Source: Chloroflexota bacterium | GTDB taxonomy: Bacteria > Chloroflexota > Dehalococcoidia > GIF9 > UBA5629 | Length of the DNA: 64,000 nucleotides | NCBI GenBank assembly: GCA_016875875.1 | Contig: VGOP01000003.1 | Location: 98,687 to 162,686, forward strand | Reading direction: 5' to 3' | Shown: one piece after another, positions 7,026 to 23,984 of the stretch | Layout: every line of letters begins with the position of its first letter | Numbering within the stretch: position 1 is the first letter of the stretch | Program-made: the position numbers and the translations under genes | The notes under the pieces: model-generated | The model's database searches: none | Told to the model about the DNA's origin: nothing | The model's input: the letters and a program-made list of their open reading frames with translations, nothing else

Positions 7026-7892
7026 TTACAATTTAGCAGCATCGAGAATTGCTGGCACCTTGGATTCCAGGCCGATAGCCATTATGTGTGTGCCCTGGCA
7101 CATGCCCTTCATCTCATTTATCAGGCGGGCAGCTATCTCCACACCCTTCTGCAATTTGTTCTCGGCTTTGTCCATCTCGTCAATAAGCTCATCCGGGACA
7201 TGTATACCGGCTACGTTCTTATTCATGAATTTGGCCATAGCTGCTGACCTGAGCACTACTATACCGACTAAAACTGGCACGCCGAATTTCTTAGCTTCTT
7301 TCATAAAGGCTTCGAACGTTTTGGGCTCGTAGATGGCCTGGGTCTGGAAGAACTGGGCGCCGGCCTTTACCTTTCTTTCCATTTTGATGAGCTGCGGTTC
7401 GACAGGGTCGGCTCCGGGAGTAACACAGGCGCCGAGAAAGAACTTGGGTGTGCCCTTTAGTTCTTTGCCAGCTAAATCCTTGCCCTGTTCCAGTTGCTGG
7501 GCAGCATGCAGCAAGGAGACGGAGTCGAGGTCGAAAACAGGTTTGGCATCAGGATGGTCTCCTAAAGTTACATAGTCTCCGGTGAGACAGAGAACATTCT
7601 CAACACCCATAACGTAAGCACTGAGCAAGTCCGATTGGAGGGCGATACGGTTGCGGTCTCGACAGGTCATCTGGAACACTGGCTCGACGCCTTTTTGGTT
7701 GAGCAAGTGACAAGCAACCAGTGACCCCAGCCTCATGACAGCGCTCTGCTGGTCGGTGCAGTTCACGGCATCCACTCTGCCTTTAAGTAATTCGGCATTC
7801 TCGTTGAACTCATGGATATCCACACCCTTAGCTGGGCCGATTTCAGCGGTGACCACAAACTTGCCGTTCTGAAGTTTTTCACGCAGACTCAT
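7026..7892 (-). CDS. metF: Methylenetetrahydrofolate reductase, MetF (acetogen/anaerobe type)
   Basis: MSLREKLQNGKFVVTAEIGPAKG...VDAVNCTDQQSAVMR...FQMTCRDRNRIALQSDLL...LCLTGDY. Start moved to ATG with GGAGGT SD; the track start lies upstream and in-frame. Confidence 0.8.
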   Translation of the reverse strand: MSLREKLQNGKFVVTAEIGPAKGVDIHEFNENAELLKGRVDAVNCTDQQSAVMRLGSLVACHLLNQKGVEPVFQMTCRDRNRIALQSDLLSAYVMGVENVLCLTGDYVTLGDHPDAKPVFDLDSVSLLHAAQQLEQGKDLAGKELKGTPKFFLGACVTPGADPVEPQLIKMERKVKAGAQFFQTQAIYEPKTFEAFMKEAKKFGVPVLVGIVVLRSAAMAKFMNKNVAGIHVPDELIDEMDKAENKLQKGVEIAARLINEMKGMCQGTHIMAIGLESKVPAILDAAKL

Positions 7893-7918
7893 AGTATGGT
7901 TACCTCCTTCAAGGATAG

Positions 7919-8602
7919 CTAAACTTTTGTTTCTTGTTGCTCCAGTGCCCACATTATGGTGGACCTTAGTTCCTTTGGCGGCTGCATTTTGGCGTAGTTC
8001 TTGACTATCGGCATGGTTTGCATTTTATCCAGCCGACCTAGTTTTTTCAGCCTCTCGTAGATTAAGTGCCAGCCGCAATCGCGTACATCGGGTTCAACCT
8101 CGCACTTGCCGTTTTTGGCACCGCCGCAAGGCCCGTTAATGAGCCATTTGGTGCAGGCGGTCAGAGGGCAAATGCCGCCGGTCAAATCGAGCACACAGTC
8201 GCCGCATTCACGGCAACGCTCGCTGCCCCGCCATTCCCCACGGCTACCACCAACATTGATGGTATTAGCCGCCGGATGGACCAGTTTGTTTACCACGGCA
8301 GCAGTAGCCTGGACTCCGATACCGCAGGTCATTACCAACAGGGAATCGGCAGCATCTATTTCATCCTCATGAGGAAACAGTCTGGTCTTAACCAGCGCTT
8401 TGTCACAGAGAAAATCGACAACGCAATAGCCGGTGACGGTCTTGCCTTCCTGCCCCAGTTTCTGCTTCATTTCCAGAACCTGAGGTTCATCGCCAGTCTG
8501 GCAGACCTCAGCACAACCTTTGCAGCCGACTATAAAGATTTTCTTGTCCCCGTCTAAATAGCCCAGGATTTCCGGAAGCGGCTTTAATTCAGAGATTATC
8601 AT
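7919..8602 (-). CDS. metV: MetV-like small subunit of methylene-THF reductase (Cys-rich, zinc-ribbon/Fe-S-like motifs)
   Basis: Cys-rich N- and C-terminal parts (CKGCAEVC, CRECGDC, CPLTAC, NGPCGG, CEVEPDVRDC). Immediately upstream of and co-oriented with metF, as in the acetogen metVF arrangement. Confidence 0.65.
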   Translation of the reverse strand: MIISELKPLPEILGYLDGDKKIFIVGCKGCAEVCQTGDEPQVLEMKQKLGQEGKTVTGYCVVDFLCDKALVKTRLFPHEDEIDAADSLLVMTCGIGVQATAAVVNKLVHPAANTINVGGSRGEWRGSERCRECGDCVLDLTGGICPLTACTKWLINGPCGGAKNGKCEVEPDVRDCGWHLIYERLKKLGRLDKMQTMPIVKNYAKMQPPKELRSTIMWALEQQETKV

Positions 8603-9117
8603 TTGTCTACCTCCATAGCTGTGGTTTCCTCTATCTCCTTGAGAACTAAATTGATTATTTTGGGTATTTTTTCTTCGACTTCTGGGGAGAGGTCAATTCC
8701 GAAGTCCATTGTTTTGGGTTCGATTCCGATGATGACCGTAGATTTTGGTTGTCTGTCAAACAAGGCCATCGTTCTCACGCTGTCTAAAACACCCATCTCG
8801 TGCAGGGAAATAGACGGTGCTGAGTCCAGGTCTACGTCATTTAAGCTGAACCGATAGATGGTACCTGGTCTATCGCCGGCCTTGACGGCATCGATGATGA
8901 TTAATTTGTCTGTGCTGTCATTTACCAGAGACAGGAAGTCGGGGTAAGTGCCAGCGTCAATTATATTGACATTGGCGTTGTCCACAACGCCGGCTAGTTT
9001 TTCAACCAGATGTACGCCTATACCTTCGTCTTTGAGCAACAGGTTGCCTATGCCAAGAACTGTGATTCTGGGACTGCGGCGAAGCGTTTGCGTCTCAGCG
9101 GACTTTGTGTATTCCAA
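8599..9117 (-). CDS. [NiFe]-hydrogenase maturation endopeptidase (HyaD/HycI/HoxM family)
   Basis: ITVLGIGNLLLKDEGIGVHLVEKL...IIDAVKAG...HEMGV. The track start is TTG. Overlaps the end of the large subunit gene. The stop abuts the metV start. Confidence 0.8.
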   Translation of the reverse strand: MEYTKSAETQTLRRSPRITVLGIGNLLLKDEGIGVHLVEKLAGVVDNANVNIIDAGTYPDFLSLVNDSTDKLIIIDAVKAGDRPGTIYRFSLNDVDLDSAPSISLHEMGVLDSVRTMALFDRQPKSTVIIGIEPKTMDFGIDLSPEVEEKIPKIINLVLKEIEETTAMEVDK

Positions 9118-10654
9118 GAGTTCTCCCTTTAAGTGTAATCACGTGTATGGCACAAGCCAGGCAGGGATCGAAGGAGCGGATAATACGCCCGAGCTCAAAG
9201 GGATTCTTTTCATCCTTTATCTTGGTACCGATAAGGGCTTGCTCTACCGGCCCTGGCTGCCCATTGTCATCTTTAGGAGACATATTCCAAGTGCTTGGCA
9301 CGACGCACTGATAATTGGCAATTTTCTTATCTTTAATCTCGATCCAGTGTCCCAGAGCACCTCGGGCACCGTCAACCAGCCCCATTCCGAAGGCTTCGTC
9401 GGGTAAGGTGTAATCTATGTAAGCTGGTTCGCCGGGCTTGAGCTGGAGCAGCCACTCGGGCATAGAATCGGCCAGGAACTTGGTGTAGAGGGCACGGGCA
9501 GCATGGCGGCCGAGTACTGAGAATAGAGCATTGGGGCTGGCGTTAAACTTGGAGAGCACGGAATCAACCAGTTGCTTTACCGTTGGCTCGCCGCTGGCAT
9601 AGGTAGCTGCTATACGGGCCAGCGGACCAACTTCATAGACTTTGCCATCGTACCGAGGAGCTTTCACCCATGAGTAGGCATCTTTCTTGCCCATCTGAGG
9701 CTCGGTCATACCTTTGGACGGATGCTTGCCGGTGCTCGACTCGGCATACCAGGAGTGTTTCACATACTCCATAATCTTGTTCGTGTCGATGGCACCAAGC
9801 TTGAGGTCGGTTGAAATCGTTCCCTGCTTCATAAACCTCTTCCTCTTGGTGTAGTCAGGATTATTGCCTTCGAGGTCGAAACTTCCGTAAGAAAGCAGAT
9901 TGCCGCAACCGGCGCCGATTTCGAAATAGTCAGGATAGGCTTCAGCTACTGCCAGGACATCAGGAATATAGACATTGTTGACGAAGTCCCTTAGCTCATT
10001 CAGCATCCACAGGAAAGAGGCTATTTTGTCTACGGTAACCGTCGCAGTGACTCCGCCCGGGATGACTGCCATATTGTGGGGCATTTTGCCGCCGAAAATA
10101 ACCAGCATTTCCTGCCCCTTGCGCCTCATCTCCAGAGCCTTGACATAATGAGCCAGGGCGCCTATGTTCATCTGGTCGCTGAGCCGGTAATCGCCTTCGT
10201 AGCGAGGCACAAATGGGGCCAGCTCTCCTCGCTTGGCAAATTCTTTGACTGAATTCAAATCTGGGTCGTTGCCATCGTACTTGAGCGCCTTGGTGACGTC
10301 CACGTAATCCAGAGCTGCCAGATGATAGAAGTGCAGTATGTGGTCGGAGACGTGGGCTGCTCCCAGTATGAGATTGCGGATAATCCGGCCGTTATCGGGT
10401 ATCTTATCGGCAAGACCAAAAGCGCTATCCAAATTCAGAGTGGCGGCTATAGAATGGCTTGTGGGACAGACGCCACAGATACGCTGAGTATACATTTGGG
10501 CATCACGGGGGTCTCTACCACGGAGGATGATTTCGAGGCCTCGGAACATCATGCCTGAACTGTGAGCCTCTTTTACCACACCATTCTCGGTGACAACTTC
10601 AACCTTAAAATGTCCTTCAATACGAGTGACAGGGTCAACTACAATCTTGCTCAA
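9095..10654 (-). CDS. [NiFe]-hydrogenase large subunit
   Basis: N-terminal VTRIEGH...RICGVCPTSHS (L1) and C-terminal DPCLACAIH followed by a short cleavable tail (VITLKGRTLGIHKVR). TTG start preceded by AAGGAG. Confidence 0.9.
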   Translation of the reverse strand: MSKIVVDPVTRIEGHFKVEVVTENGVVKEAHSSGMMFRGLEIILRGRDPRDAQMYTQRICGVCPTSHSIAATLNLDSAFGLADKIPDNGRIIRNLILGAAHVSDHILHFYHLAALDYVDVTKALKYDGNDPDLNSVKEFAKRGELAPFVPRYEGDYRLSDQMNIGALAHYVKALEMRRKGQEMLVIFGGKMPHNMAVIPGGVTATVTVDKIASFLWMLNELRDFVNNVYIPDVLAVAEAYPDYFEIGAGCGNLLSYGSFDLEGNNPDYTKRKRFMKQGTISTDLKLGAIDTNKIMEYVKHSWYAESSTGKHPSKGMTEPQMGKKDAYSWVKAPRYDGKVYEVGPLARIAATYASGEPTVKQLVDSVLSKFNASPNALFSVLGRHAARALYTKFLADSMPEWLLQLKPGEPAYIDYTLPDEAFGMGLVDGARGALGHWIEIKDKKIANYQCVVPSTWNMSPKDDNGQPGPVEQALIGTKIKDEKNPFELGRIIRSFDPCLACAIHVITLKGRTLGIHKVR

Positions 10655-10657
10655 TTT

Positions 10658-11554
10658 CTATTTCTCCTTTCCTCGGAGTTTGCCTATAGCGGGCATGTTG
10701 GCGTCGCTTAATTTCTGATAGACAGGAGCCACCAAATCGGGAAATCCGGGCTCGCAGCAGCCGATGCAGGGCGAACCGGCATCGATGCACCAGTTTGTTC
10801 CATGGTTCCATTTCCTCAATGGGCAATCTGCATGAGTAACCGGCCCCTTGCAGCCAAGCTCGTTGAGGCACCCAGGCTCCCCGAACTTCCTGGCAAATTT
10901 TCCTTCATCAAAATAGGCTCGTCTGGGACAATTCTCATGTATTAAATTACCGTAGAAAACCTTGGGGCGTTTAAGTTCATCTAAATCTTCTGGTTTAGGT
11001 AAGCCTAGAAGCAGCACGGAGGCGACCGTGCCTATGAACCAGTCGGGGTGGGGTGGGCAACCTGGTAGATTGACTAAGGGCTTGTTGATTTTGCACGATT
11101 TCAAAAATTTGTCGGTGCCGATATAACCACCGGGGTTAGGCTTGCCAGCAGCGATACCGCCGTAGGCAGCGCAGGTGCCCAGGGCGATGACTGCCAGAGC
11201 ATCCTTGGCTAAAGCTTCAACCCGCTCTGTCATGGGCACCGGTTTGTCGTTTTTCTCACCAAGTGCTCCGTAGATACCACCATCTTTGGTGGGTATGGCG
11301 CCTTCGACTACCAGAACATAGCCGCCTTTATTTGTCTCTGGCATATTTTCGAGGACATGAATTGCGGCTTCTCCTTCGCCAGCCATTACGGTCGCCTGGA
11401 ATTTCAGGCTTACATGTTTACCGGGTACAACTTCATCGATAAGGACATTCTTGATGTTTGGGCTAACTGTATTGAGGACTGTGACTGAACATCCGGTGCA
11501 AGTACCTGTCTGTATCCAGACAACCGGAATTTCTTGAACGTTTGCTTTAGGCAT
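10658..11554 (-). CDS. [NiFe]-hydrogenase small subunit, no Tat signal peptide (cytoplasmic type)
   Basis: MPKANVQEIPVVWIQTGTCTGCSV... proximal cluster motif right at the N-terminus; further Cys ligands (CAAYGG, GCPPHPDW, CPRRAYF, CLNELGCKGP, CIGCCEPGFPD). Start moved to ATG with AAGGGGG SD; the track start is an upstream TTG. No RRxFxK motif. Confidence 0.85.
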   Translation of the reverse strand: MPKANVQEIPVVWIQTGTCTGCSVTVLNTVSPNIKNVLIDEVVPGKHVSLKFQATVMAGEGEAAIHVLENMPETNKGGYVLVVEGAIPTKDGGIYGALGEKNDKPVPMTERVEALAKDALAVIALGTCAAYGGIAAGKPNPGGYIGTDKFLKSCKINKPLVNLPGCPPHPDWFIGTVASVLLLGLPKPEDLDELKRPKVFYGNLIHENCPRRAYFDEGKFARKFGEPGCLNELGCKGPVTHADCPLRKWNHGTNWCIDAGSPCIGCCEPGFPDLVAPVYQKLSDANMPAIGKLRGKEK

Positions 11555-11703
11555 TCGACCCCCTTTCTTTGCCAAGAGTTGCCAACCGCAAATTCTACAG
11601 GTTTGTGGCGATTAATGCAAGTAGATTCGGTGGCAATTTTTAGATAGGGGTAGCACTCCCTAAACTATACTGCCACTTCTCTTAGCAGAAGGACGAGGAA
11701 ATC

Positions 11704-12024
11704 TTATGGCAACTTGCCCCTCTTCTTCCTTCTTTCTACTATTCTATCCTCTCTCCTTTTGAGATAGCTCGTCCCGATTATACTGAGGGAAGTCAATGCT
11801 ATTGCTGCCCCTATAAGAATATAAAATGCAGTGAACAGGCGGCAGGCGTCAGAAGTCGGGTGCAAGTCTCCGTAACCGGTTGTGGTAAAGGTCGAAACAG
11901 AGAAATAGAAGCATTGAATCCATGTCCATCCCTCAAAATATCTATATGTCACCGTGCCCATTATAATAACCATTATTAACGCGAAAGAAGCGGATACTAT
12001 TTGTGCTCTTATGTTTGATAACAT
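11704..12024 (-). CDS. Minimal two-TM potassium channel (Ion_trans_2 / KcsA-like pore domain), 106 aa
   Basis: TM1, pore helix and canonical K+ selectivity filter TTTGYGD, then TM2 and a basic C-terminal tail (KRREDRIVERRKKRGK). ATG preceded by AAAGGGGAG. Confidence 0.7.
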   Translation of the reverse strand: MLSNIRAQIVSASFALIMVIIMGTVTYRYFEGWTWIQCFYFSVSTFTTTGYGDLHPTSDACRLFTAFYILIGAAIALTSLSIIGTSYLKRREDRIVERRKKRGKLP

Positions 12025-12050
12025 GGCTCCCCTTTCCTGAACGTACTTTC

Positions 12051-12082
12051 AATTAAAAACGTGCATTCTTTTTCATGCAAAG
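12051..12082 (-). terminator. Weak intrinsic-terminator-like hairpin downstream of hypE (TGCAT-loop-ATGCA followed by CGTTTTTAATTG on the minus strand)
   Basis: Short 5-6 bp stem with a T-tract on the minus strand; a second GC hairpin (GCCCTTG...CAAGGGC) lies nearby at ~12103-12124. Confidence 0.25.
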
Positions 12083-12187
12083 CATCAATAAGGCATACAG
12101 TATTGCCCTTGGCTCTTTACAAGGGCTGATAAACATAAGGTTTCGTTCTTCCCTGCTTAGCAAGGGAGGAGGGATGGGTTGCTAGAA

Positions 12188-13195
12188 CTAGCATATCCGG
12201 GGCAGAAGCTCTCCGCTAAGCATATCAACGATGCGGGATGCCCCGAGCCGCGTCTTCATTATCACCTTGCCTTTGTACTCATCGGTTACCTCACCGATGA
12301 TGGCAGCTTCGGCACCATATTGATTCCGTTTCATCTTGGCCAGAACCATTTGGGCATCGTCTGCGGTGACTATAGCTACCAGCTTGCCTTCATTAGCGAC
12401 ATAAAGCGGGTCGAAGCCGAGAAGCTCGCAGGCAGCTCGTACGCCATCATGTATAGGTATCTTTCCCTCTTCTATCCTGATGCCCACTTTGGACTGTTTG
12501 GCAAATTCGTTGAGTGTGGTGGCTAAGCCGCCTCGAGTTGGGTCACGCAGGGAATGAATTTGCGATGAGTCTTCCGCCATCTGCGACACCAGTTTGTTCA
12601 AGGGGGCGCAGTCGCTTTGAACTGGGACTGAGAACTTCAGCCCTTCGCGCTGGCTCATCACCGCAATGCCGTGGTCGCCGATGGTACCGCTGAGGATAAT
12701 TTTGTCGCCTACTTTGGCATTAGCCCCTGATATATCTATACCCTGTGGGACGATACCTATGCCCGAGGTGTTGATGAACAGTTTATCAGCACCGCCCCGG
12801 TTTACCACCTTGGTATCGCCGGTGACTATCTTCACTCCAGCTTCTTCAGCGGCAGCTTTTATTGAGCTGACTATCTTTTTCAGTTCGCCGAGCGTTAAGC
12901 CTTCTTCTATAATGAACGATAGGCTCAGGTACAGTGGTGTGGCTCCGCTCATGGCTATGTCGTTAATGGTGCCGCAGACAGCTAGCTTTCCAATGTCGCC
13001 GCCGGGGAAGAAGATGGGACTAACTACATAGCTGTCAGTGGTGAAGGCAAGGCGACCGCTGAGGTCGAAAACTGCCGAATCGTCCAGTTTGGCTAATAGC
13101 GGATTGGCTAGAGGCGGCAGGAAATTTTTCTCTATCAGCTCATGACTCAGCCGGCTGCCGCTGCCATGAGCCAGCAGGATTATTTCATCATCCAT
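12188..13195 (-). CDS. hypE: Hydrogenase maturation factor HypE (carbamoyl dehydratase)
   Basis: PurM-like fold, C-terminal PRIC motif ending the protein. Confidence 0.9.
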   Translation of the reverse strand: MDDEIILLAHGSGSRLSHELIEKNFLPPLANPLLAKLDDSAVFDLSGRLAFTTDSYVVSPIFFPGGDIGKLAVCGTINDIAMSGATPLYLSLSFIIEEGLTLGELKKIVSSIKAAAEEAGVKIVTGDTKVVNRGGADKLFINTSGIGIVPQGIDISGANAKVGDKIILSGTIGDHGIAVMSQREGLKFSVPVQSDCAPLNKLVSQMAEDSSQIHSLRDPTRGGLATTLNEFAKQSKVGIRIEEGKIPIHDGVRAACELLGFDPLYVANEGKLVAIVTADDAQMVLAKMKRNQYGAEAAIIGEVTDEYKGKVIMKTRLGASRIVDMLSGELLPRIC

Positions 13196-13326: not shown

Positions 13327-14412
13327 CTAAACAATTTCATATTGATAATAAGCGGCACAGGCACCTTCTGAAGATACCATGCATGGCCCTACAGGTTGCT
13401 CTGGAAAACAGGCCTTGCGGAATAGCTTGCACTCATTAGGAGTCTTTACACCGCGAAGGATATCGCCGCAGATGCAGCCCTTCGCTTCTCGGACCGGCTC
13501 CAGGGTTACTGAAAAGGCTAGCTCGGCGTCGAAACGTCCGTATTCCTTTCTCAGTTTCAGGCCGCTGGCTGGAACAACGCCTATACCTCTCCAATCGGCG
13601 CCACTGACTTCAAAAACGCTGTCCATTAGCTTTAAGGCTGTTATGTTACCTTCAGGCTTAACGCCACGGCGGTAGGCTATCTCCACCCGCGGCTTGCCGC
13701 TTTCGATTTGCTCCACCAGCATGGCTACGGACTGCAGAATATCCAGCGGCTCGAAGCCTGAGACTACGCAGGCAACGCCGTAGTCGCGGGGGATGAATTC
13801 GTAGTGACGAGAGCCAATTATGGCACTGACATGCCCAGGGCAAACGATGCCGTCCAGCTTGAGCTCACCCAAATCAAGGATAGCTTTCATTATTGGTGGG
13901 CATAGCTTCAGCAGGCAGAGGACGTAAAAGTTTCTGATTCCTTCATTTTCAGCCTGAAAAATGGAGGCGGCGATGGTTGGGCTGGTGGTCTCAAAGCCGA
14001 TGCCGATGAAGATAACCGACCGTGTTGGGTTGTCCCTGGCAATTTGCAGAGCATCTTGGGTGGAGTAGACAATGCGGATATCAGCCTCTTCTGCTCTGAC
14101 TTTCTGCAGGCTGGAATAGCTGCCGGGGACTTTCATCATATCGCCGAAGGTGGTGATAATGACATCGGGCAAGCGGGCCAGGGCAATAGCTTTATCTATA
14201 TCGGCGTTGGCGGTAACACACACCGGGCAGCCCGGGCCAGAGAGCATCTCTACAGTTGGGGGAAGAAGCTGGCGGATACCGTTTCTCATGATGGCTACGG
14301 TGTGCCCGCCGCAGAACTCCATCAGCCTGGCTGGCCTTTTCGACAGTTGCTCTATTCTGGCTACCAGCTTTTTGCCCAGCTCAACATCCCGGTATTCATC
14401 AATAAATTTCAC
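13327..14412 (-). CDS. hypD: Hydrogenase maturation factor HypD
   Basis: MKFIDEYRD..., GPGCPVC and CPVC... Fe-S/CxxC motifs; GTG start sharing a base with the upstream stop (TAGTG). Confidence 0.9.
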   Translation of the reverse strand: MKFIDEYRDVELGKKLVARIEQLSKRPARLMEFCGGHTVAIMRNGIRQLLPPTVEMLSGPGCPVCVTANADIDKAIALARLPDVIITTFGDMMKVPGSYSSLQKVRAEEADIRIVYSTQDALQIARDNPTRSVIFIGIGFETTSPTIAASIFQAENEGIRNFYVLCLLKLCPPIMKAILDLGELKLDGIVCPGHVSAIIGSRHYEFIPRDYGVACVVSGFEPLDILQSVAMLVEQIESGKPRVEIAYRRGVKPEGNITALKLMDSVFEVSGADWRGIGVVPASGLKLRKEYGRFDAELAFSVTLEPVREAKGCICGDILRGVKTPNECKLFRKACFPEQPVGPCMVSSEGACAAYYQYEIV

Positions 14413-15137
14413 TATTCGACTCTTTCTTCCAGGACAGTTTCACCAGCAAGCTTCCCGTTGGTTAGCTGCAACAACGCCTGCTCGGCTTGCTCGAGATTAT
14501 TTGCCAAATCTTCAAGAAGGCTTAGATACTCTGCAGACTTGTTTTTAAATTTATCCAGGTACTTCTGCTTTATCGCCGGGTCTGAGTTACCGATGCTGTC
14601 CCCAATGTTAGTGAGGACGTACTCATTAGTATTCTTGTAGCTCATGGCTAAGTGCTCTGCGCCATTCAGCGTCGACTGAAGCTGGTTGCACAGATCCAGC
14701 CACTGGGGCATGGTGGAATTATCGGACGGCCTTGTTGCTCGTACCTTTTCCGCCATCTCTAAAGACATATCGCAATAAAGCACTAGAGTCCCTGCCGATT
14801 CTGGCCGCGGCAGCATCTCGGGCAGGGGGATCCACTTACAGCCGCTGCTTTCATCAAATGACCCTTTTGTAGTCACATACTCACCCAGCTTACATACGTC
14901 ACTCGGCGGCACTTCCAGGCCAATAACGGAAAACTCATCCCAGGTGAAATCTTTGAGCTCCAAGGCTATACCACGAGTCTCCTCAATATAACCCTTCATC
15001 GCATCATAGGGGTCGACAGGCTTGCGTTCCTCAATTCGGTTGAGACTTCTGGGGACCCACAATAAAGCCAGGCCGGCGAGCAAAAGCACAACTCCAGCAA
15101 CCAAAGCGGCATGCAATACGTACCTATTCCGCTTCAT
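14412..15137 (-). CDS. Hypothetical N-terminally membrane-anchored protein embedded in the hyp operon (no recognisable family)
   Basis: KRNR followed by a hydrophobic helix (LHAALVAGVVLLLAGLALLW), then a ~200-aa soluble domain with scattered Cys and a C-terminal coiled-coil-like segment. Start overlaps the hypC 3' end and the stop overlaps the hypD start. Confidence 0.5.
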   Translation of the reverse strand: MKRNRYVLHAALVAGVVLLLAGLALLWVPRSLNRIEERKPVDPYDAMKGYIEETRGIALELKDFTWDEFSVIGLEVPPSDVCKLGEYVTTKGSFDESSGCKWIPLPEMLPRPESAGTLVLYCDMSLEMAEKVRATRPSDNSTMPQWLDLCNQLQSTLNGAEHLAMSYKNTNEYVLTNIGDSIGNSDPAIKQKYLDKFKNKSAEYLSLLEDLANNLEQAEQALLQLTNGKLAGETVLEERVE

Positions 15138-15354
15138 CGCCAAGCCTCACCATCTCCTCCAATATCTTCAGTGTCTCCTGGGCTTCGGCTTCGTCGATAA
15201 CGTTTATGGCATAGCCGGTGTGTAGCAGGACATAATCGCCGACCTTGGCCTCCGGGGTAAGCATTATGCTGACTCGGCGTTTTACACCGCCGATTTCCAC
15301 CTCAGCTTCATTGCCGTCTATCGAAGTAACCTGTACTGGAACAGCTAAACACAT
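15124..15354 (-). CDS. hypC: Hydrogenase maturation factor HypC
   Basis: N-terminal MCLAVP motif, 76 aa. Confidence 0.85.
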   Translation of the reverse strand: MCLAVPVQVTSIDGNEAEVEIGGVKRRVSIMLTPEAKVGDYVLLHTGYAINVIDEAEAQETLKILEEMVRLGDEAE

Positions 15355-19331: not shown

Positions 19332-21993
19332 CTAATAAGCCTGGCTGTAAATTTGCAGAACTTCATTCGGGTCACTGACAGGGCGCCCATTGAATAGGAC
19401 AGCCGTATCGGCAATAGCATGGAAGGCGCATATGGCCAGGTTCTCTTCCGGAACGCCCACGTCGCGCAGCCTCATCGGATGGCCCACTTTTGTCATCAGT
19501 GCTTCCACTGCGTCCGCTGCTGCCAGGGCGGCATCGCGCTCCGCCATGCCGCTGGTGTTAACGCCCAGGGCCTGTGCTACCTGAGCTAGTTTGTCAGCCG
19601 CGTGATCGACGTTGTACCGCATCACCTTCGGGAGCACTATGCCGCAAGCTGCCCCATGTGGGACATGGTATAGTGTCCCTATAGTATGCGCCATACCATG
19701 TGCCAGGCCGACCTGGGCCATGGTGAATGCCCAACCTGCCATGGTGGCTGCTAACTGCAAATTGAGCCGTGCCTTTTCATTCTCGCCATCGGCTACCACG
19801 AGCGGTAGGTTCTCGTGGATCAGGCGTATAGCCTGCAATGCTTGACCGTCACATATCTTGTTTGCCATGGTGCTTGTCATAGCCTCGATGGCATGTGTCA
19901 GGGCATCCATGGCGGTGGATACGGTTATATCCTTGGGGAAAAGACGTGGTGAAGCGCGGGTCCAGAATAGCCACATTTGGCATGATTCGTGTGTCGACTA
20001 TGAACAGTTTACGTCCCGCGCCTTTGCTTGTGAGTACGGCTATGCTTGTTACTTCACTGCCGGTTCCCGCTGTTGTTGGAATGGCGATATGAGGGGTTTG
20101 AGGCTCAGTGAGTACCAACATGTTCAGATGGTCATTCGCCTTGCCGCCGTTCTTTAAGGTCACACAGACCCCTTTGGCAGTATCGATAACGCTCCCACCA
20201 CCCACGCTTACGATACAGTCCGCCTTCAGTTCGCGGGCCATGGCAGTGGCCGCATCTACTGTTTCCAGATCGGGATCCGACGGGATATTGTCATAGATAC
20301 CCACGCAGAAATCCGCAAGGGCATTCTTCGCCAGCTCAGCCAGCCCGGCCTGCCTTACGCCGGGATCGGTAAGAATCAAAGCCCTGCGGCAGCCAAGATC
20401 CGCAACTGCCTTGTAGATTGAGCTCAGAGCTCCGTGGCCAGCGACTACATTAGTCGGACAGTTGTACGAAAAACCGTCTACCTTTTTATAGTCCGACATA
20501 AGTTGAAAGGAGATATTCGTCTTATGGTCGGCCAGGGCGGACACATGTATTCTCTTGATCTGGGTATATTCATGTAATCCCGCGAGCCCCAGCTCACGTC
20601 CTACGCCGGACTGCTTATACCCACCAAAGGGGCAGAAATCGGCAAAGACGTGGTAATTGTTTATCCACATTGTTCCGGTACGTACCCCGCGGGCTACACG
20701 CTCGGCCCTGGCGGTGTTAGAAGAAAATACCCCTCCTCCCAGGCCATAAATGGAGTCATTGGCAATTGCCACTGCTTCTTCATCGCTGTCGTATTTTATA
20801 ACACAGACAACTGGGCCAAAGATCTCTTCCTGCGCGATACGCATTTTGTTGTTCACGTTGGCGAAAATGGTGGGAGCATAGTAGAATCCGCCATTGATTC
20901 CTTTAACCTCGACGCGTTTTCCACCTGTGATCAGTTCCGCTCCCTCTTCATTACCCATTTTGACGTAACGTTCGACTGTGGCCAATTGCGTCTTGCTGAC
21001 AAGAGGCCCCATGTGCGAGTTAGGGTCCATCTGGTATCCGATGCGGATAGATTCAGCTCGCTTTTTCATCTTGTCGAGGAACTCATCATATATCTTTGAT
21101 GAGACTAGTACGCGTGTACCTGATTCGCATATCTGTCCCTGGTGGAAGAAGGTGCCGAAAACGGCGCCCTCTACGGCCAGGTCCATATCAGCATCGTCAA
21201 GTATGATATTGGCCGATTTACCGCCGAGCTCGAGTGTCACTTTTTTCACCGTGTCGGATGCCAGTCTCATGATTTCACGTCCGACTTCCGTGCTGCCGGT
21301 AAAGGCTATCTTGCCCACATCGGGGTGGGTACAGAGAATTTTGCCCAGCTCTCCCCCTGGTCCGGTTATGACATTTACCACCCCGTTGGGAATGCCGGCC
21401 GCTTTGGCGGCTTCAGCAATGATAAGTGCGCTCAATGGGGTTGCCGAAGCCGGTTTCAAAACGATGGTATTTCCCATTACGAGGGCAGGGGCGATTTTCC
21501 AGAAAGCCATGGTCATGGGGAAGTTCCAGGGAATGATTCCCACGCATACGCCAATTGGCTCCCTGCGGATAAATTCACGGCCCGGTGCAAATACATTCCC
21601 TGAGATCTGGATCTCTTCCTCCCAGGGAAATTTTGTGGCCGCTACTAGACTCAGATTGCGCAATAACCCGATGCCGAGCAAGGGCCCGAACTTGGCGAGT
21701 CCCATGATCTGGTCTGAATCCATGCATTCAGTTGCAGCCAGACGTAGCCCCTGCTGTGCTACCTGGTCGGCAAAATCCTGAATTTTTGCCATACGGGCCA
21801 CCGGGGACAACCCGCTCCAGCCCCCGCTGTCGAAAGCCTTACGTGAGGCGGCTATAGCCGCCTCTGCATCAGCCTTTCCCGCTTGTGCTACTGTTGCTAT
21901 AGGAGCTTCAGTGCCAGGGTCGATCGATTCGAAGGTCTTTCCGTCTGCGGCGTCGACAAATTCTCCATCAATAAACAGTTTATATTGCTCCAT
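19332..21993 (-). pseudogene. AdhE-like bifunctional aldehyde dehydrogenase / iron-containing alcohol dehydrogenase, interrupted by a frameshift
   Basis: N-terminal ~490 aa is NAD-ALDH superfamily. The Fe-ADH domain follows (GGGSVIDTAKG...), but the frame breaks at ~19930-19945 within a T4/C4 run (coding strand cgtcttttccccaagg). The downstream frame continues the ADH (DITVSTAMDALTHAIEA...HVPHGAACGIVLP...). Track ORFs 19849..21993 and 19332..19976. Confidence 0.6.
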
Positions 21994-23639: not shown

Positions 23640-23984
23640 GTGCACGAATTAGTCATAACGCAGAACATACTGGATATCGTCCTAAAAGAGGCAAAAGCAG
23701 CTCCGGCAAATAAGGTCACCAAGATAAATCTGGTCATCGGTGAGCTATCAGGGGTCGTCAGCGATTCCGTCCTTTTCTACTTCGATTTTCTCAAGAAAGG
23801 TAATGCAGCTGAGGGAGCCACCCTCGATTTTAAACTGGTGCCGGCAGAACTGCGGTGTCGAGACTGCCTGATTGCCTTTAATCCAAAAGACTCCGCATGG
23901 ATTTGTCCGGATTGCCAGGGAACCAATCTTGAGGTGATTAGCGGGCAAGAGTGCCGCGTAGAAAGTATAGAGGTCGAACAATGA
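23640..23984 (+). CDS. hypA: Hydrogenase nickel-insertion protein HypA
   Basis: MHE N-terminus (Ni site) and C-terminal zinc site CRDC...CPDC. Confidence 0.85.
   Translation: MHELVITQNILDIVLKEAKAAPANKVTKINLVIGELSGVVSDSVLFYFDFLKKGNAAEGATLDFKLVPAELRCRDCLIAFNPKDSAWICPDCQGTNLEVISGQECRVESIEVEQ

What the first reader, a model, noticed from the sequence alone, without database searches (positions are those of the whole stretch)
11704..12024. 106-aa minimal K+ channel (TTTGYGD) inserted between hypE and the hydrogenase structural genes
The ORF has a good SD, two predicted TM helices flanking a pore helix, the canonical TxGYGD selectivity filter, and a short basic C-terminus. It is among the smallest K+ channel architectures (KcsA/Kcv-like). 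It sits alone with ~130-160-bp gaps on both sides in the middle of an otherwise hydrogenase-dedicated cluster, which is an unexpected genomic context.
Basis: partly seen in the sequence, partly recalled or inferred. Interest (0 to 1): 0.6.

Follow-up and report, generated by a model that had tools for sequence, protein, structure and literature searches.

The report
Small stand-alone potassium channel gene
This is a real, selectively maintained gene for a bare-pore potassium channel of 106 residues that three related Dehalococcoidia lineages carry in a variable gap between two hydrogenase operons; it is an ordinary member of a large known channel family, and no evidence ties it to the hydrogenase machinery.

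Summary
ORF 11704-12024 (minus strand) encodes a 106-aa protein that matches Pfam Ion_trans_2 (E 1.2e-18). Its AlphaFold model is TM1, pore helix, filter loop, TM2, and it superposes on the NaK channel (rmsd 1.2-1.3 Å). The filter is TTGYGD, and dN/dS is 0.10-0.20. It belongs to a metagenomic family of about 105-aa pore-only channels. NCBI already annotates this exact protein, under the misleading name "two pore domain potassium channel family protein". Stand-alone pores of about 100 aa are common: 34 of the best 150 representative clusters.

The hydrogenase context is not a conserved association. None of 63 informative orthologous hydrogenase loci from GTDB species representatives has the channel. 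hypE abuts the small subunit directly in 11 of them. In 7 others the same gap holds unrelated inserts (PAS-GGDEF gene, IS transposase, MscL, and others). More distant channel homologues lie in unrelated neighbourhoods.

The channel occupies this junction only in the window and two relatives (84-85% identity). It lies upstream of a conserved promoter-like element that precedes the hydrogenase operon.

Most likely it is a homotetrameric K+ channel acquired as a roughly 0.5-kb cassette at a rearrangement-prone inter-operon junction. The only unusual feature is a clade-specific Val-to-Thr change in the filter. Interest is low.

The parts
11704..12024 (-). Coding sequence of the 106-aa pore-only K+ channel. 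Parts: TM1 about residues 2-31, pore helix 35-47, filter T48-T49-G50-Y51-G52-D53, TM2 plus cytoplasmic helical extension 59-101, glycine hinge G72.
   Evidence: ORF. Pfam PF07885 E 1.2e-18. AlphaFold model pLDDT 87. Foldseek to NaK, TM 0.71-0.73. Family alignment invariants G23 E31 W33 Y40 F41 T45 T48 G50 G52 D53 L54 P56 T65 G72 R91. dN/dS 0.10-0.20.
12025..12092 (-). Conserved 68-nt block immediately upstream of the channel start. It includes the Shine-Dalgarno-like run GGAAAGGGGAG (12027-12037). It is a candidate own promoter and 5' leader of the channel gene (inference).
   Evidence: Three-way alignment of window, L005 and L096. This proximal block is largely invariant, while the hypE-proximal part of the spacer is not alignable. 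No Rfam family matches it.
12093..12187 (-). Poorly conserved distal part of the hypE-channel spacer. In the window it contains a perfect 7-bp hairpin, GCCCTTG-N8-CAAGGGC, that is not conserved in the relatives.
   Evidence: The fold is not more stable than shuffles (z -1.5).
11555..11703 (-). Spacer between the channel and the hydrogenase small subunit. It carries a promoter-like element, TTGCAT (11615-11620), 17 nt, TAGAAT (11592-11597), that belongs to the hydrogenase operon and not to the channel.
   Evidence: The element is conserved upstream of the small-subunit gene in 11 of 12 related loci, whatever gene lies upstream. L096 and L022 are 99.8% identical from just upstream of this element onward and unrelated before it. 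The consensus scan did not list it because its first hexamer matches only 3 of 6 positions.
12188..13195 (-). hypE, the last gene of the hypF-hypC-(unknown 243 aa)-hypD-hypE maturation operon. Upstream flank of the insertion.
   Evidence: Pfam AIRS and AIRS_C. 86-91% identical orthologues in L005, L096, L011.
10658..11554 (-). NiFe hydrogenase small subunit (298 aa from the ATG at 11554; no Tat signal peptide). First gene of the hydrogenase-HycI-MetV-MetF operon. Downstream flank of the insertion.
   Evidence: Pfam Oxidored_q6 and NiFe_hyd_SSU_C. The NCBIfam NiFeSe small-subunit match starts at model position 36. Synteny across 80 loci.

Best explanation
The ORF encodes a stand-alone pore module of the tetrameric cation-channel superfamily (Pfam Ion_trans_2). 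Four identical 106-residue subunits each contribute an outer helix, a pore helix, a TTGYGD selectivity-filter loop and an inner helix with a glycine hinge (G72). Together they would form a K+-selective pore. Gating would be intrinsic, at the filter and/or the inner-helix bundle, because there is no voltage-sensor, RCK or ligand-binding domain. Only a short basic helical C-terminal extension follows TM2.

The physiological role is generic: K+ flux and membrane-potential homeostasis.

Its position is the product of a lineage-specific insertion of a cassette of roughly 0.5 kb (gene plus about 70 nt of conserved upstream sequence). The cassette lies in the gap between two separately promoted transcription units. 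One is the hypFCDE maturation operon. The other is the hydrogenase-MetVF operon. This gap is a hotspot for insertions and rearrangements in this group of Dehalococcoidia. The channel is not a component of the hydrogenase system.

Shown: family membership, fold, filter motif, purifying selection, and the distribution of the insertion.

Inferred: tetramerisation, K+ selectivity, autonomous gating, own promoter, physiological role.
For: Identity:
- Pfam PF07885 scores 67.2 bits, E 1.2e-18.
- PDB sequence hits are to K2P pore domains, NaK/NaK2K and MthK, down to E 1.5e-14.
- The AlphaFold model has pLDDT 87 with helices 2-31, 35-47 and 59-101.
- Foldseek gives NaK (2q69, 2ahy) TM 0.71-0.73, rmsd 1.2-1.3 Å over about 80 residues, and closed MthK TM 0.71.
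- G50, G52, D53, T48 and hinge G72 are invariant in 48 homologues.
- The exact TTGYGD filter occurs in MloK1, which was shown to be K+/Rb+-selective in flux assays (PMC2233883).

Functionality:
- dN/dS is 0.17, 0.20 and 0.10.
- Residues 31-70 are identical in L005.

Context:
- No channel was found in any of 80 orthologous hydrogenase loci by tblastn or family HMM.
- Of 63 informative loci, 11 have hypE directly adjacent (14-235 bp gap), 7 have other inserts and 45 have no hypE upstream.
- Inserts at the same junction include a PASx4-GGDEF gene, an IS240-type transposase, MscL plus a CCG protein, and a cohesin-domain protein.
- Channel homologues at 44-71% identity lie in unrelated neighbourhoods. 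These include enoyl-CoA hydratase/TatD, ArsP permease and TetR/hydrolase. Of the 85 loci fetched (80 of them from the metagenome scan), 84 show no hyp or hydrogenase gene nearby.
- The hydrogenase promoter-like element lies downstream of the channel and is conserved irrespective of the upstream neighbour.
- Channel GC is 42% and GC3 46%, against 50-53% and 52-59% in the neighbours.
- No RCK/TrkA gene was found among the ORFs of at least 110 aa examined in window 1-30000.
Against: There are no functional or expression data of any kind. Tetramer formation and selectivity are inferred from homology.

The Val-to-Thr substitution at the second filter position is atypical for this family (3 carriers, 0 of 46 others). 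In TWIK-1 the same TTGYG sequence is associated with unstable K+/Na+ selectivity (bioRxiv 10.1101/735704).

The channel has stayed at this junction in three lineages that differ by about 15% in protein sequence. Some local selective benefit, such as co-expression by read-through from hypE, is therefore not excluded.

No intrinsic terminator is evident between hypE and the channel.

The lower synonymous divergence of the channel relative to its flanks is not explained by simple vertical inheritance of an old insertion.
Confidence: 0.8

Rival explanations
1. The channel is functionally coupled to the hydrogenase/Hyp system. For example, it could be co-expressed with the maturation genes by read-through from hypE, so that K+ flux or membrane potential is adjusted when H2 metabolism is switched on.
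For: Same strand as both operons, only 163 bp after hypE, with no recognisable intrinsic terminator in between. The arrangement is retained in three lineages (window, L005, L096). The clade-specific V49T filter change coincides with this location.
Against: The channel is absent from all 63 informative orthologous clusters. Eleven of them have hypE directly next to the small subunit, and channel-less L011, L014 and L020 are interleaved with the channel-bearing lineages in the HypE tree. The same gap hosts unrelated genes elsewhere. Other family members are never next to hydrogenase genes. The hydrogenase operon has its own conserved promoter-like element downstream of the channel. The channel has its own conserved upstream block.
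Confidence: 0.05
2. It is a pore-only cation channel with weak or conditional K+ selectivity (NaK-like or TWIK-1-like) because of the Thr at the second filter position.
For: The closest solved structures are NaK, a non-selective channel. TTGYG in the first pore loop of TWIK-1 is linked to dynamic K+/Na+ selectivity, which T118I stabilises. The V-to-T change is derived and clade-specific within a family that is otherwise TVGYGD.
Against: NaK's non-selectivity comes from its TVGDGN filter, whereas this protein keeps the full GYGD. The best small-protein sequence hits are the K+-selective NaK2K mutants. MloK1 has exactly TTGYGD and excludes Na+ and Li+. In canonical K+ channels the residue at this position contributes a backbone carbonyl to the ion-binding sites (established structural knowledge; not tested here).
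Confidence: 0.1
3. It is only the pore subunit of a multi-component channel and needs a separately encoded regulatory partner (for example a soluble RCK/KTN protein) to gate.
For: It has no regulatory domain. Most prokaryotic 2TM K+ channels carry added cytoplasmic domains, most commonly RCK/KTN (PMC2234077). The conserved charged C-terminal helix (R91 invariant, E92 nearly so) could be a docking site.
Against: No RCK/TrkA gene was found among the ORFs of at least 110 aa examined in window 1-30000. None appears in the neighbourhoods of homologues that were inspected. Comparably small pore-only channels (Kcv, NaK) function alone (PMC12332018 and PMC2234077).
Confidence: 0.07
4. It is a decaying or unexpressed relic of a horizontally acquired gene with no present function.
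For: Lower GC and GC3 than its neighbours. Patchy distribution. No expression data.
Against: The reading frame is intact in three lineages with dN/dS 0.17-0.20. All substitutions are conservative changes in the TM helices and C-terminal tail, and the pore helix, filter and turret are invariant. The SD and the upstream block are conserved.
Confidence: 0.03

Closest known systems
NaK channel of Bacillus cereus (PDB 2ahy, 2q69) and its K+-selective engineered form NaK2K (3ouf)
   Same: It has a similar size (110 aa against 106 aa) and a pore-only 2TM architecture with a very short turret. It is the best structural match (TM 0.71-0.73, rmsd 1.2-1.3 Å) and the best small-protein sequence match (E about 5e-12, about 30% identity).
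   Different: NaK has the filter TVGDGN and is non-selective, whereas this protein has TTGYGD, as in the engineered K+-selective NaK2K. The model shows no separate N-terminal interfacial helix; residues 2-31 form one helix.
KcsA (Streptomyces lividans)
   Same: 2TM plus pore helix plus GYGD filter. The aromatic pair before the filter is Y40-F41 here and W67-W68 in KcsA. There is a glycine hinge. Identity is 29% over pore helix to TM2 (KcsA sequence entered from memory).
   Different: KcsA is 160 aa with a long C-terminal four-helix bundle and a pH sensor. The residue equivalent to KcsA Glu71 is Ser44 here, so the Glu71-Asp80 inactivation pair is absent (read from the alignment). The turret is much shorter.
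Kcv miniature channels of chloroviruses (82-94 aa)
   Same: Pore-only, about 100 aa, with the same module order. Identity is 29% to PBCV-1 Kcv (sequence entered from memory). These are the reference examples that such minimal proteins work as channels on their own (PMC2234077, PMC12332018).
   Different: The origin is cellular (Dehalococcoidia), not viral. A scan of IMG/VR found no relative of this family. Kcv has a 14-residue longer turret and no cytoplasmic C-terminal extension, whereas this protein has about 20 charged residues after TM2.
MloK1 / MlotiK1 (Mesorhizobium loti)
   Same: Identical selectivity-filter sequence TTGYGD. MloK1 is experimentally K+/Rb+-selective (PMC2233883).
   Different: MloK1 is a 355-aa 6TM channel with a cyclic-nucleotide-binding domain. 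Only the filter is comparable.
Eukaryotic K2P channels (TASK, TREK, TWIK), the family whose name NCBI attaches to this protein
   Same: Best overall sequence scores in the PDB are to single pore domains of TASK-1 and TASK-3 (E 1.5e-14). TWIK-1 pore loop 1 shares TTGYG.
   Different: K2P subunits have four TM helices and two pore domains and act as dimers. This protein has one pore domain, so the NCBI name 'two pore domain potassium channel family protein' is a naming artefact.

Membership tests
K+ channel pore family (Pfam PF07885 Ion_trans_2) | Significant match to the family profile above the curated threshold | tested here: met
   67.2 bits against a cutoff of 22.5, E 1.2e-18, residues 15-86 covering profile positions 2-76 of 79.
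K+ channel pore family (Pfam PF07885 Ion_trans_2) | Outer helix, re-entrant pore helix, filter loop, inner helix | tested here: met
   AlphaFold model pLDDT 87 with H2-31, H35-47, loop 48-58, H59-101. Hydropathy peaks at 7-27 and 61-84. Foldseek to NaK and MthK pores.
K+ channel pore family (Pfam PF07885 Ion_trans_2) | Signature T-x-G-Y/F-G-D selectivity filter | tested here: met
   T48-T49-G50-Y51-G52-D53. T48, G50, G52 and D53 are invariant in 48 homologues. x is Thr here and Val in 45 of 48.
K+ channel pore family (Pfam PF07885 Ion_trans_2) | Inner-helix glycine gating hinge | tested here: met
   G72 is invariant in the family alignment. Its equivalence to KcsA G99 and MthK G83 rests on alignment and general knowledge.
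K+ channel pore family (Pfam PF07885 Ion_trans_2) | Homotetramer that conducts K+ selectively | not testable with these tools
   Only a monomer could be modelled. No electrophysiology or flux assay was possible.
Two-pore-domain (K2P) channels, as named in the NCBI record | Two pore domains and four TM helices per subunit | tested here: not met
   A single Ion_trans_2 stretch in 106 aa and one pore helix in the model.
NaK-type non-selective cation channels | Filter TVGDGN, lacking the upper K+ sites | tested here: not met
   The filter is TTGYGD. The fold match to NaK is otherwise the best.
Viral miniature K+ channels (Kcv) | Encoded by viruses; close sequence relationship to Kcv proteins | tested here: not met
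   No relative in IMG/VR viral contigs. Only 29% identity to PBCV-1 Kcv. The host contig is a 453-kb Chloroflexi MAG contig.
Hydrogenase accessory or maturation genes (hyp/hup cluster members) | Conserved co-occurrence with hydrogenase or hyp genes across orthologous clusters | tested here: not met
   0 of 63 informative orthologous loci carry it. Of the 85 loci fetched have no hyp or hydrogenase gene nearby.
RCK/KTN-regulated 2TM K+ channels (MthK-like) | C-terminal RCK domain, or an adjacent gene for a soluble RCK/KTN protein | tested here: not met
   No domain beyond the pore. No TrkA/RCK family among the 27 ORFs of at least 110 aa scanned in window 1-30000. The rest of the genome was not examined.

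The most novel reading that the evidence does not exclude
The three junction-located copies form a distinct sub-clade defined by a Val-to-Thr filter change (TTGYGD). Their synonymous divergence is 2-3 times lower than that of their flanks. On this reading, a roughly 0.5-kb channel cassette spread among related freshwater Dehalococcoidia specifically into the hyp/hydrogenase junction. It was retained there because read-through from the hyp operon couples K+ conductance or membrane potential to the onset of H2-driven, MetVF-linked metabolism. That would be a natural, physiologically wired 'NaK2K-like' minimal channel with altered filter behaviour.
Probability: 0.05. Interest if true: 0.5.

Novelty: new member of a known kind. 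Interest (0 to 1): 0.2.

Why it matters
As a gene it matters little. It is one more pore-only member of the K+ channel superfamily, already present in public annotation, and its placement inside a hydrogenase cluster is explained by a variable inter-operon junction.

It has modest practical value in three respects.

- The roughly 105-aa family (natural TVGYGD/TTGYGD relatives of NaK with a minimal turret) offers compact cellular counterparts of viral Kcv channels for structure-function work. The natural V/T polymorphism at the second filter position could be used to test ideas about filter stability derived from TWIK-1.
- The NCBI product name 'two pore domain' is wrong for these single-pore proteins.
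- The comparative data show that gene neighbourhood alone would have suggested a hydrogenase link that does not hold up.

Tried and rejected
- **Riboswitch or other known RNA element in the flanking spacers.** There is no Rfam match at E<=1 in 11400-12400. The upstream spacer folds no better than shuffles (z -1.5). The downstream spacer folds better (z -3.2), but the hairpin is not conserved in L005 or L096, so it was not interpreted.
- **Consensus sigma-70 promoter and terminator scan.** Nothing above background. The conserved TTGCAT-17-TAGAAT element was found only by comparative alignment.
- **Mobile-element signatures around the channel.** No flanking direct or inverted repeats beyond one 12-nt chance-level pair.
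- **Viral origin.** No relative in IMG/VR.
- **Recombination tract.** A sliding identity profile of window against L096 shows the channel slightly more conserved (82-92%) than its flanks (72-88%), with no tract extending into hypE or the small subunit. The lower dS of the channel remains unexplained.
- **Identity of the sequence that replaces the channel region in L022.** Only sub-threshold HTH hits, so it cannot be called a transposase.
- **Weak HMM hits in L015 and L020.** These are 120-130-aa channel-like ORFs without a GYG filter and with no Pfam match. They are not orthologues of the channel.
- **Literature.** No paper in the searchable library describes this family or a channel in hyp clusters. 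The absence of a hit is not proof of absence.

Full report
**Observation**

The window holds an ATG-initiated ORF on the minus strand at 11704-12024 that encodes 106 residues. A purine-rich Shine-Dalgarno-like run (GGAAAGGGGAG, 12027-12037) precedes it. The ORF lies 163 bp downstream of hypE (12188-13195). It lies 149 bp upstream of the ATG (11554) of a NiFe hydrogenase small subunit, which is followed by the large subunit and a HycI-type protease. The sequence contains TTTGYGD at residues 47-53.

**Identity of the protein**

Sequence and structure searches agree:

- Pfam Ion_trans_2 (PF07885) matches at 67.2 bits (cutoff 22.5), E 1.2e-18, over residues 15-86.
- A phmmer search of PDB sequences returns 145 channel chains. 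These are led by single pore domains of K2P channels (E 1.5e-14), then by NaK and its K+-selective NaK2K mutants (about 5e-12) and MthK.
- An AlphaFold2 model built on a 48-sequence alignment is confident (mean pLDDT 87). It shows helix 2-31, pore helix 35-47, a loop 48-58 that carries the filter, and helix 59-101.
- Foldseek places the model on closed NaK (TM 0.71-0.73, rmsd 1.2-1.3 Å over about 80 residues) and closed MthK.
- Hydropathy agrees with two membrane helices.

In the family alignment, T48, G50, G52, D53, the hinge glycine G72 and the aromatic pair Y40-F41 are invariant. The protein therefore meets every sequence and fold criterion for a K+ channel pore subunit. It has nothing else apart from about 20 charged residues that continue the inner helix into the cytoplasm.

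**Is it a live gene?**

The window copy was compared with the two closest orthologues, L005 (85% identity) and L096 (84%). dN/dS is 0.17 and 0.20, and it is 0.10 against a 71%-identical homologue. All amino-acid differences are conservative changes in the transmembrane helices and C-terminal tail. In L005, residues 31-70 (pore helix, filter, turret, start of TM2) are identical. A 68-nt block directly upstream of the start codon, including the SD, is conserved in all three lineages. The rest of the spacer towards hypE is not alignable. These features indicate a maintained, probably independently expressed gene. Expression itself could not be tested.

**How unusual is the protein?**

It is not very unusual:

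- The identical protein is in NCBI and JGI from a 453-kb Chloroflexi MAG contig. It is named 'two pore domain potassium channel family protein'. That name is a misnomer, since there is only one pore domain.
- The word-indexed search found 48 relatives, mostly 103-110 aa.
- The exhaustive search of 1.84 billion representative proteins found 11,398 relatives at E<=1e-3. Of the best 150 clusters, 34 are single-pore proteins of 96-157 aa.
- The solved NaK channel is 110 aa. Viral Kcv channels of 82-94 aa remain smaller (PMC2234077).

The family resembles NaK in its pore-helix and inner-helix sequence but carries the canonical K+ filter, so it is like a natural version of the engineered NaK2K.

One detail is distinctive. 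45 of 48 family members have TVGYGD. The window protein and its two junction-located orthologues have TTGYGD. That exact filter occurs in MloK1, which is K+/Rb+-selective in flux assays (PMC2233883). It also occurs in pore loop 1 of TWIK-1, where it is linked to unstable selectivity (bioRxiv 10.1101/735704). I therefore expect K+ selectivity but keep altered selectivity as a minor rival.

**The genomic context**

A scan of GTDB species representatives with the small-subunit protein returned 80 orthologous loci (62-90% identity). Most are Dehalococcoidia. Neither tblastn with the channel nor an HMM of the family finds the channel in any of them. Of the 63 loci with enough upstream sequence:

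- 11 have hypE directly next to the small subunit, with gaps of 14-235 bp.
- 7 have hypE followed by other inserts.
- 45 have no hypE upstream at all.

The other inserts include a four-PAS GGDEF gene on the opposite strand in the closest relatives L011 and L014. There is also an IS240-type transposase in L025, MscL plus a CCG-domain protein in L042, and a cohesin-domain protein in L043.

The reverse test was also run. Channel homologues of 44-71% identity sit next to enoyl-CoA hydratase and TatD, an ArsP-type permease, or a TetR/hydrolase cluster. In total 85 loci were fetched, 80 of them from a metagenome scan with the family alignment. Only one, L096, has hyp or hydrogenase genes nearby. L096, L005 and the window are thus the only three lineages with hypE-channel-small subunit.

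In HypE and large-subunit neighbour-joining trees, the channel-less L011, L014 and L020 are interleaved with these three (no support values). The distribution is therefore patchy even within the group.

**Operon structure at the junction**

An element TTGCAT-17 nt-TAGAAT (window 11615-11620 and 11592-11597) lies about 40 nt upstream of the small-subunit start. It is conserved in 11 of 12 related loci, whatever gene precedes it. L096 and the MAG contig L022 are 99.8% identical over 5,983 bp starting just upstream of this element. They are unrelated before it, which places a breakpoint exactly there.

The channel therefore lies between the end of the hypF-hypC-(unknown)-hypD-hypE unit and the promoter region of the hydrogenase-HycI-MetV-MetF unit. 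Its GC content (42%; GC3 46%) is lower than that of the neighbours (50-53%; 52-59%). This is consistent with acquisition, although membrane-protein composition contributes. No flanking repeats, riboswitch or viral relatives were found.

**An unresolved detail**

In all three pairwise comparisons the channel's synonymous divergence (dS 0.33-0.43) is two- to three-fold lower than that of hypE, the small subunit and the large subunit (0.8-1.2). The difference is more than 4 standard errors on pS. Yet the identity profile shows no recombination tract extending into the flanks. Either the cassette spread among these lineages after they diverged, or synonymous sites of this short, AT-rich membrane-protein gene are constrained. 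I could not decide between these.

**Mechanism and verdict**

The best-supported explanation (confidence about 0.8) has two parts. The first is a homotetrameric, autonomously gated, K+-selective pore that serves general K+ and membrane-potential homeostasis. The second is that the gene was inserted as a small cassette at a rearrangement-prone inter-operon gap. No evidence ties it to a dedicated role in hydrogenase function.

Family membership, fold, motif, purifying selection and the distribution of the insertion are shown. Tetramerisation, selectivity, gating, promoter and physiological role are inferred.

The rivals are hydrogenase coupling (0.05), altered selectivity (0.1), dependence on an unseen partner (0.07) and a dead gene (0.03). 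All are less well supported.

The finding is a correct call of an ordinary gene: a new member of a known kind, of low interest (0.2).

A conserved feature of this locus, seen in passing, is the operon that joins a Tat-less NiFe hydrogenase directly to MetV/MetF-like methylene-tetrahydrofolate reductase genes. It is described in the items noticed in passing.

Noticed in passing
window 7026-11554 (-); loci L011-L090: A NiFe hydrogenase sits in one apparent operon with a HycI protease, a MetV-like protein (PF12225) and MetF (PF02219). The small subunit is 298 aa and lacks a Tat signal; its NCBIfam NiFeSe-type match starts at model position 36. The large subunit is 519 aa. The order SSU-LSU-(HycI)-MetV-MetF is kept in most of 80 species-representative loci. 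These are mainly Dehalococcoidia, plus MAGs labelled Desulfobacterota, Poribacteria, Actinomycetota and an archaeon. The papers I read describe Hdr/MvhD-MetVF clusters, not a two-subunit hydrogenase directly linked to MetVF. It may be an H2-dependent methylene-THF reductase and deserves its own evaluation.
   Followed up: partly
window 14412-15143 (-): A 243-aa protein with an N-terminal transmembrane helix and no Pfam or NCBIfam match lies between hypC (15124-15354) and hypD. It overlaps the end of hypC by 20 nt. Homologues of 31-37% identity occupy the same position in L024, L031, L033, L035 and L036. It is absent in the closest relatives L011 and L014.
   Followed up: partly
window 11592-11620 (-); alignment A3: A promoter-like element, TTGCAT-N17-TA(G/A)AAT, followed by a conserved TTGCG-TTGGCA stretch, is conserved upstream of the hydrogenase small-subunit gene in 11 of 12 related loci, independent of the upstream neighbour. 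The consensus promoter scan missed it.
   Followed up: partly
L096:2045-8027 versus L022:543-6525: Two contigs from sister lake samples are 99.8% identical over 5,983 bp of the hydrogenase operon but diverge completely just upstream of the promoter element. L096 has hypE-channel there. L022 has an unrelated truncated ORF with only sub-threshold HTH hits, and the contig ends inside it. This is either a population-level structural polymorphism or an assembly break at a repeat.
   Followed up: partly
L015:7798-8187 and L020:15416-15778: These are 120-130-aa two-helix ORFs downstream of the FAA-hydrolase gene. They hit the channel-family HMM weakly (E 2e-7 and 2e-6) but have ILGGMGPV where the TVGYG filter would be. 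The L020 ORF has no Pfam match; the L015 ORF was not scanned. They may be a degenerate channel-like family.
   Followed up: no
L042:4708-5217 (-): In another Dehalococcoidia MAG the same hypE/small-subunit gap holds an MscL mechanosensitive channel gene plus a cupin-like ORF and a CCG/4Fe-4S (HdrD-like) protein. A second, unrelated channel at the same junction is probably coincidence.
   Followed up: no
window 19332-21993 (-): An AdhE-like aldehyde/alcohol dehydrogenase appears split into two overlapping ORFs. One is 19849-21993 (Aldedh plus the N-terminal part of Fe-ADH). The other is 19332-19976 (ADH_Fe_C). This could be a frameshift, a sequencing error or a genuine split gene.
   Followed up: no
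window 11704-12024 versus flanks; L005, L096: The synonymous divergence of the channel gene (dS 0.33-0.43) is 2-3 times lower than that of the adjacent hypE, small-subunit and large-subunit genes (0.8-1.2) in all pairwise comparisons. No recombination tract is visible in the flanks.
   Followed up: partly
window 23640-23984 (+): hypA lies about 6 kb away from the hypFCDE operon on the opposite strand, next to a metallo-beta-lactamase-fold gene. No hypB was seen among the ORFs examined in 1-30000.
   Followed up: no
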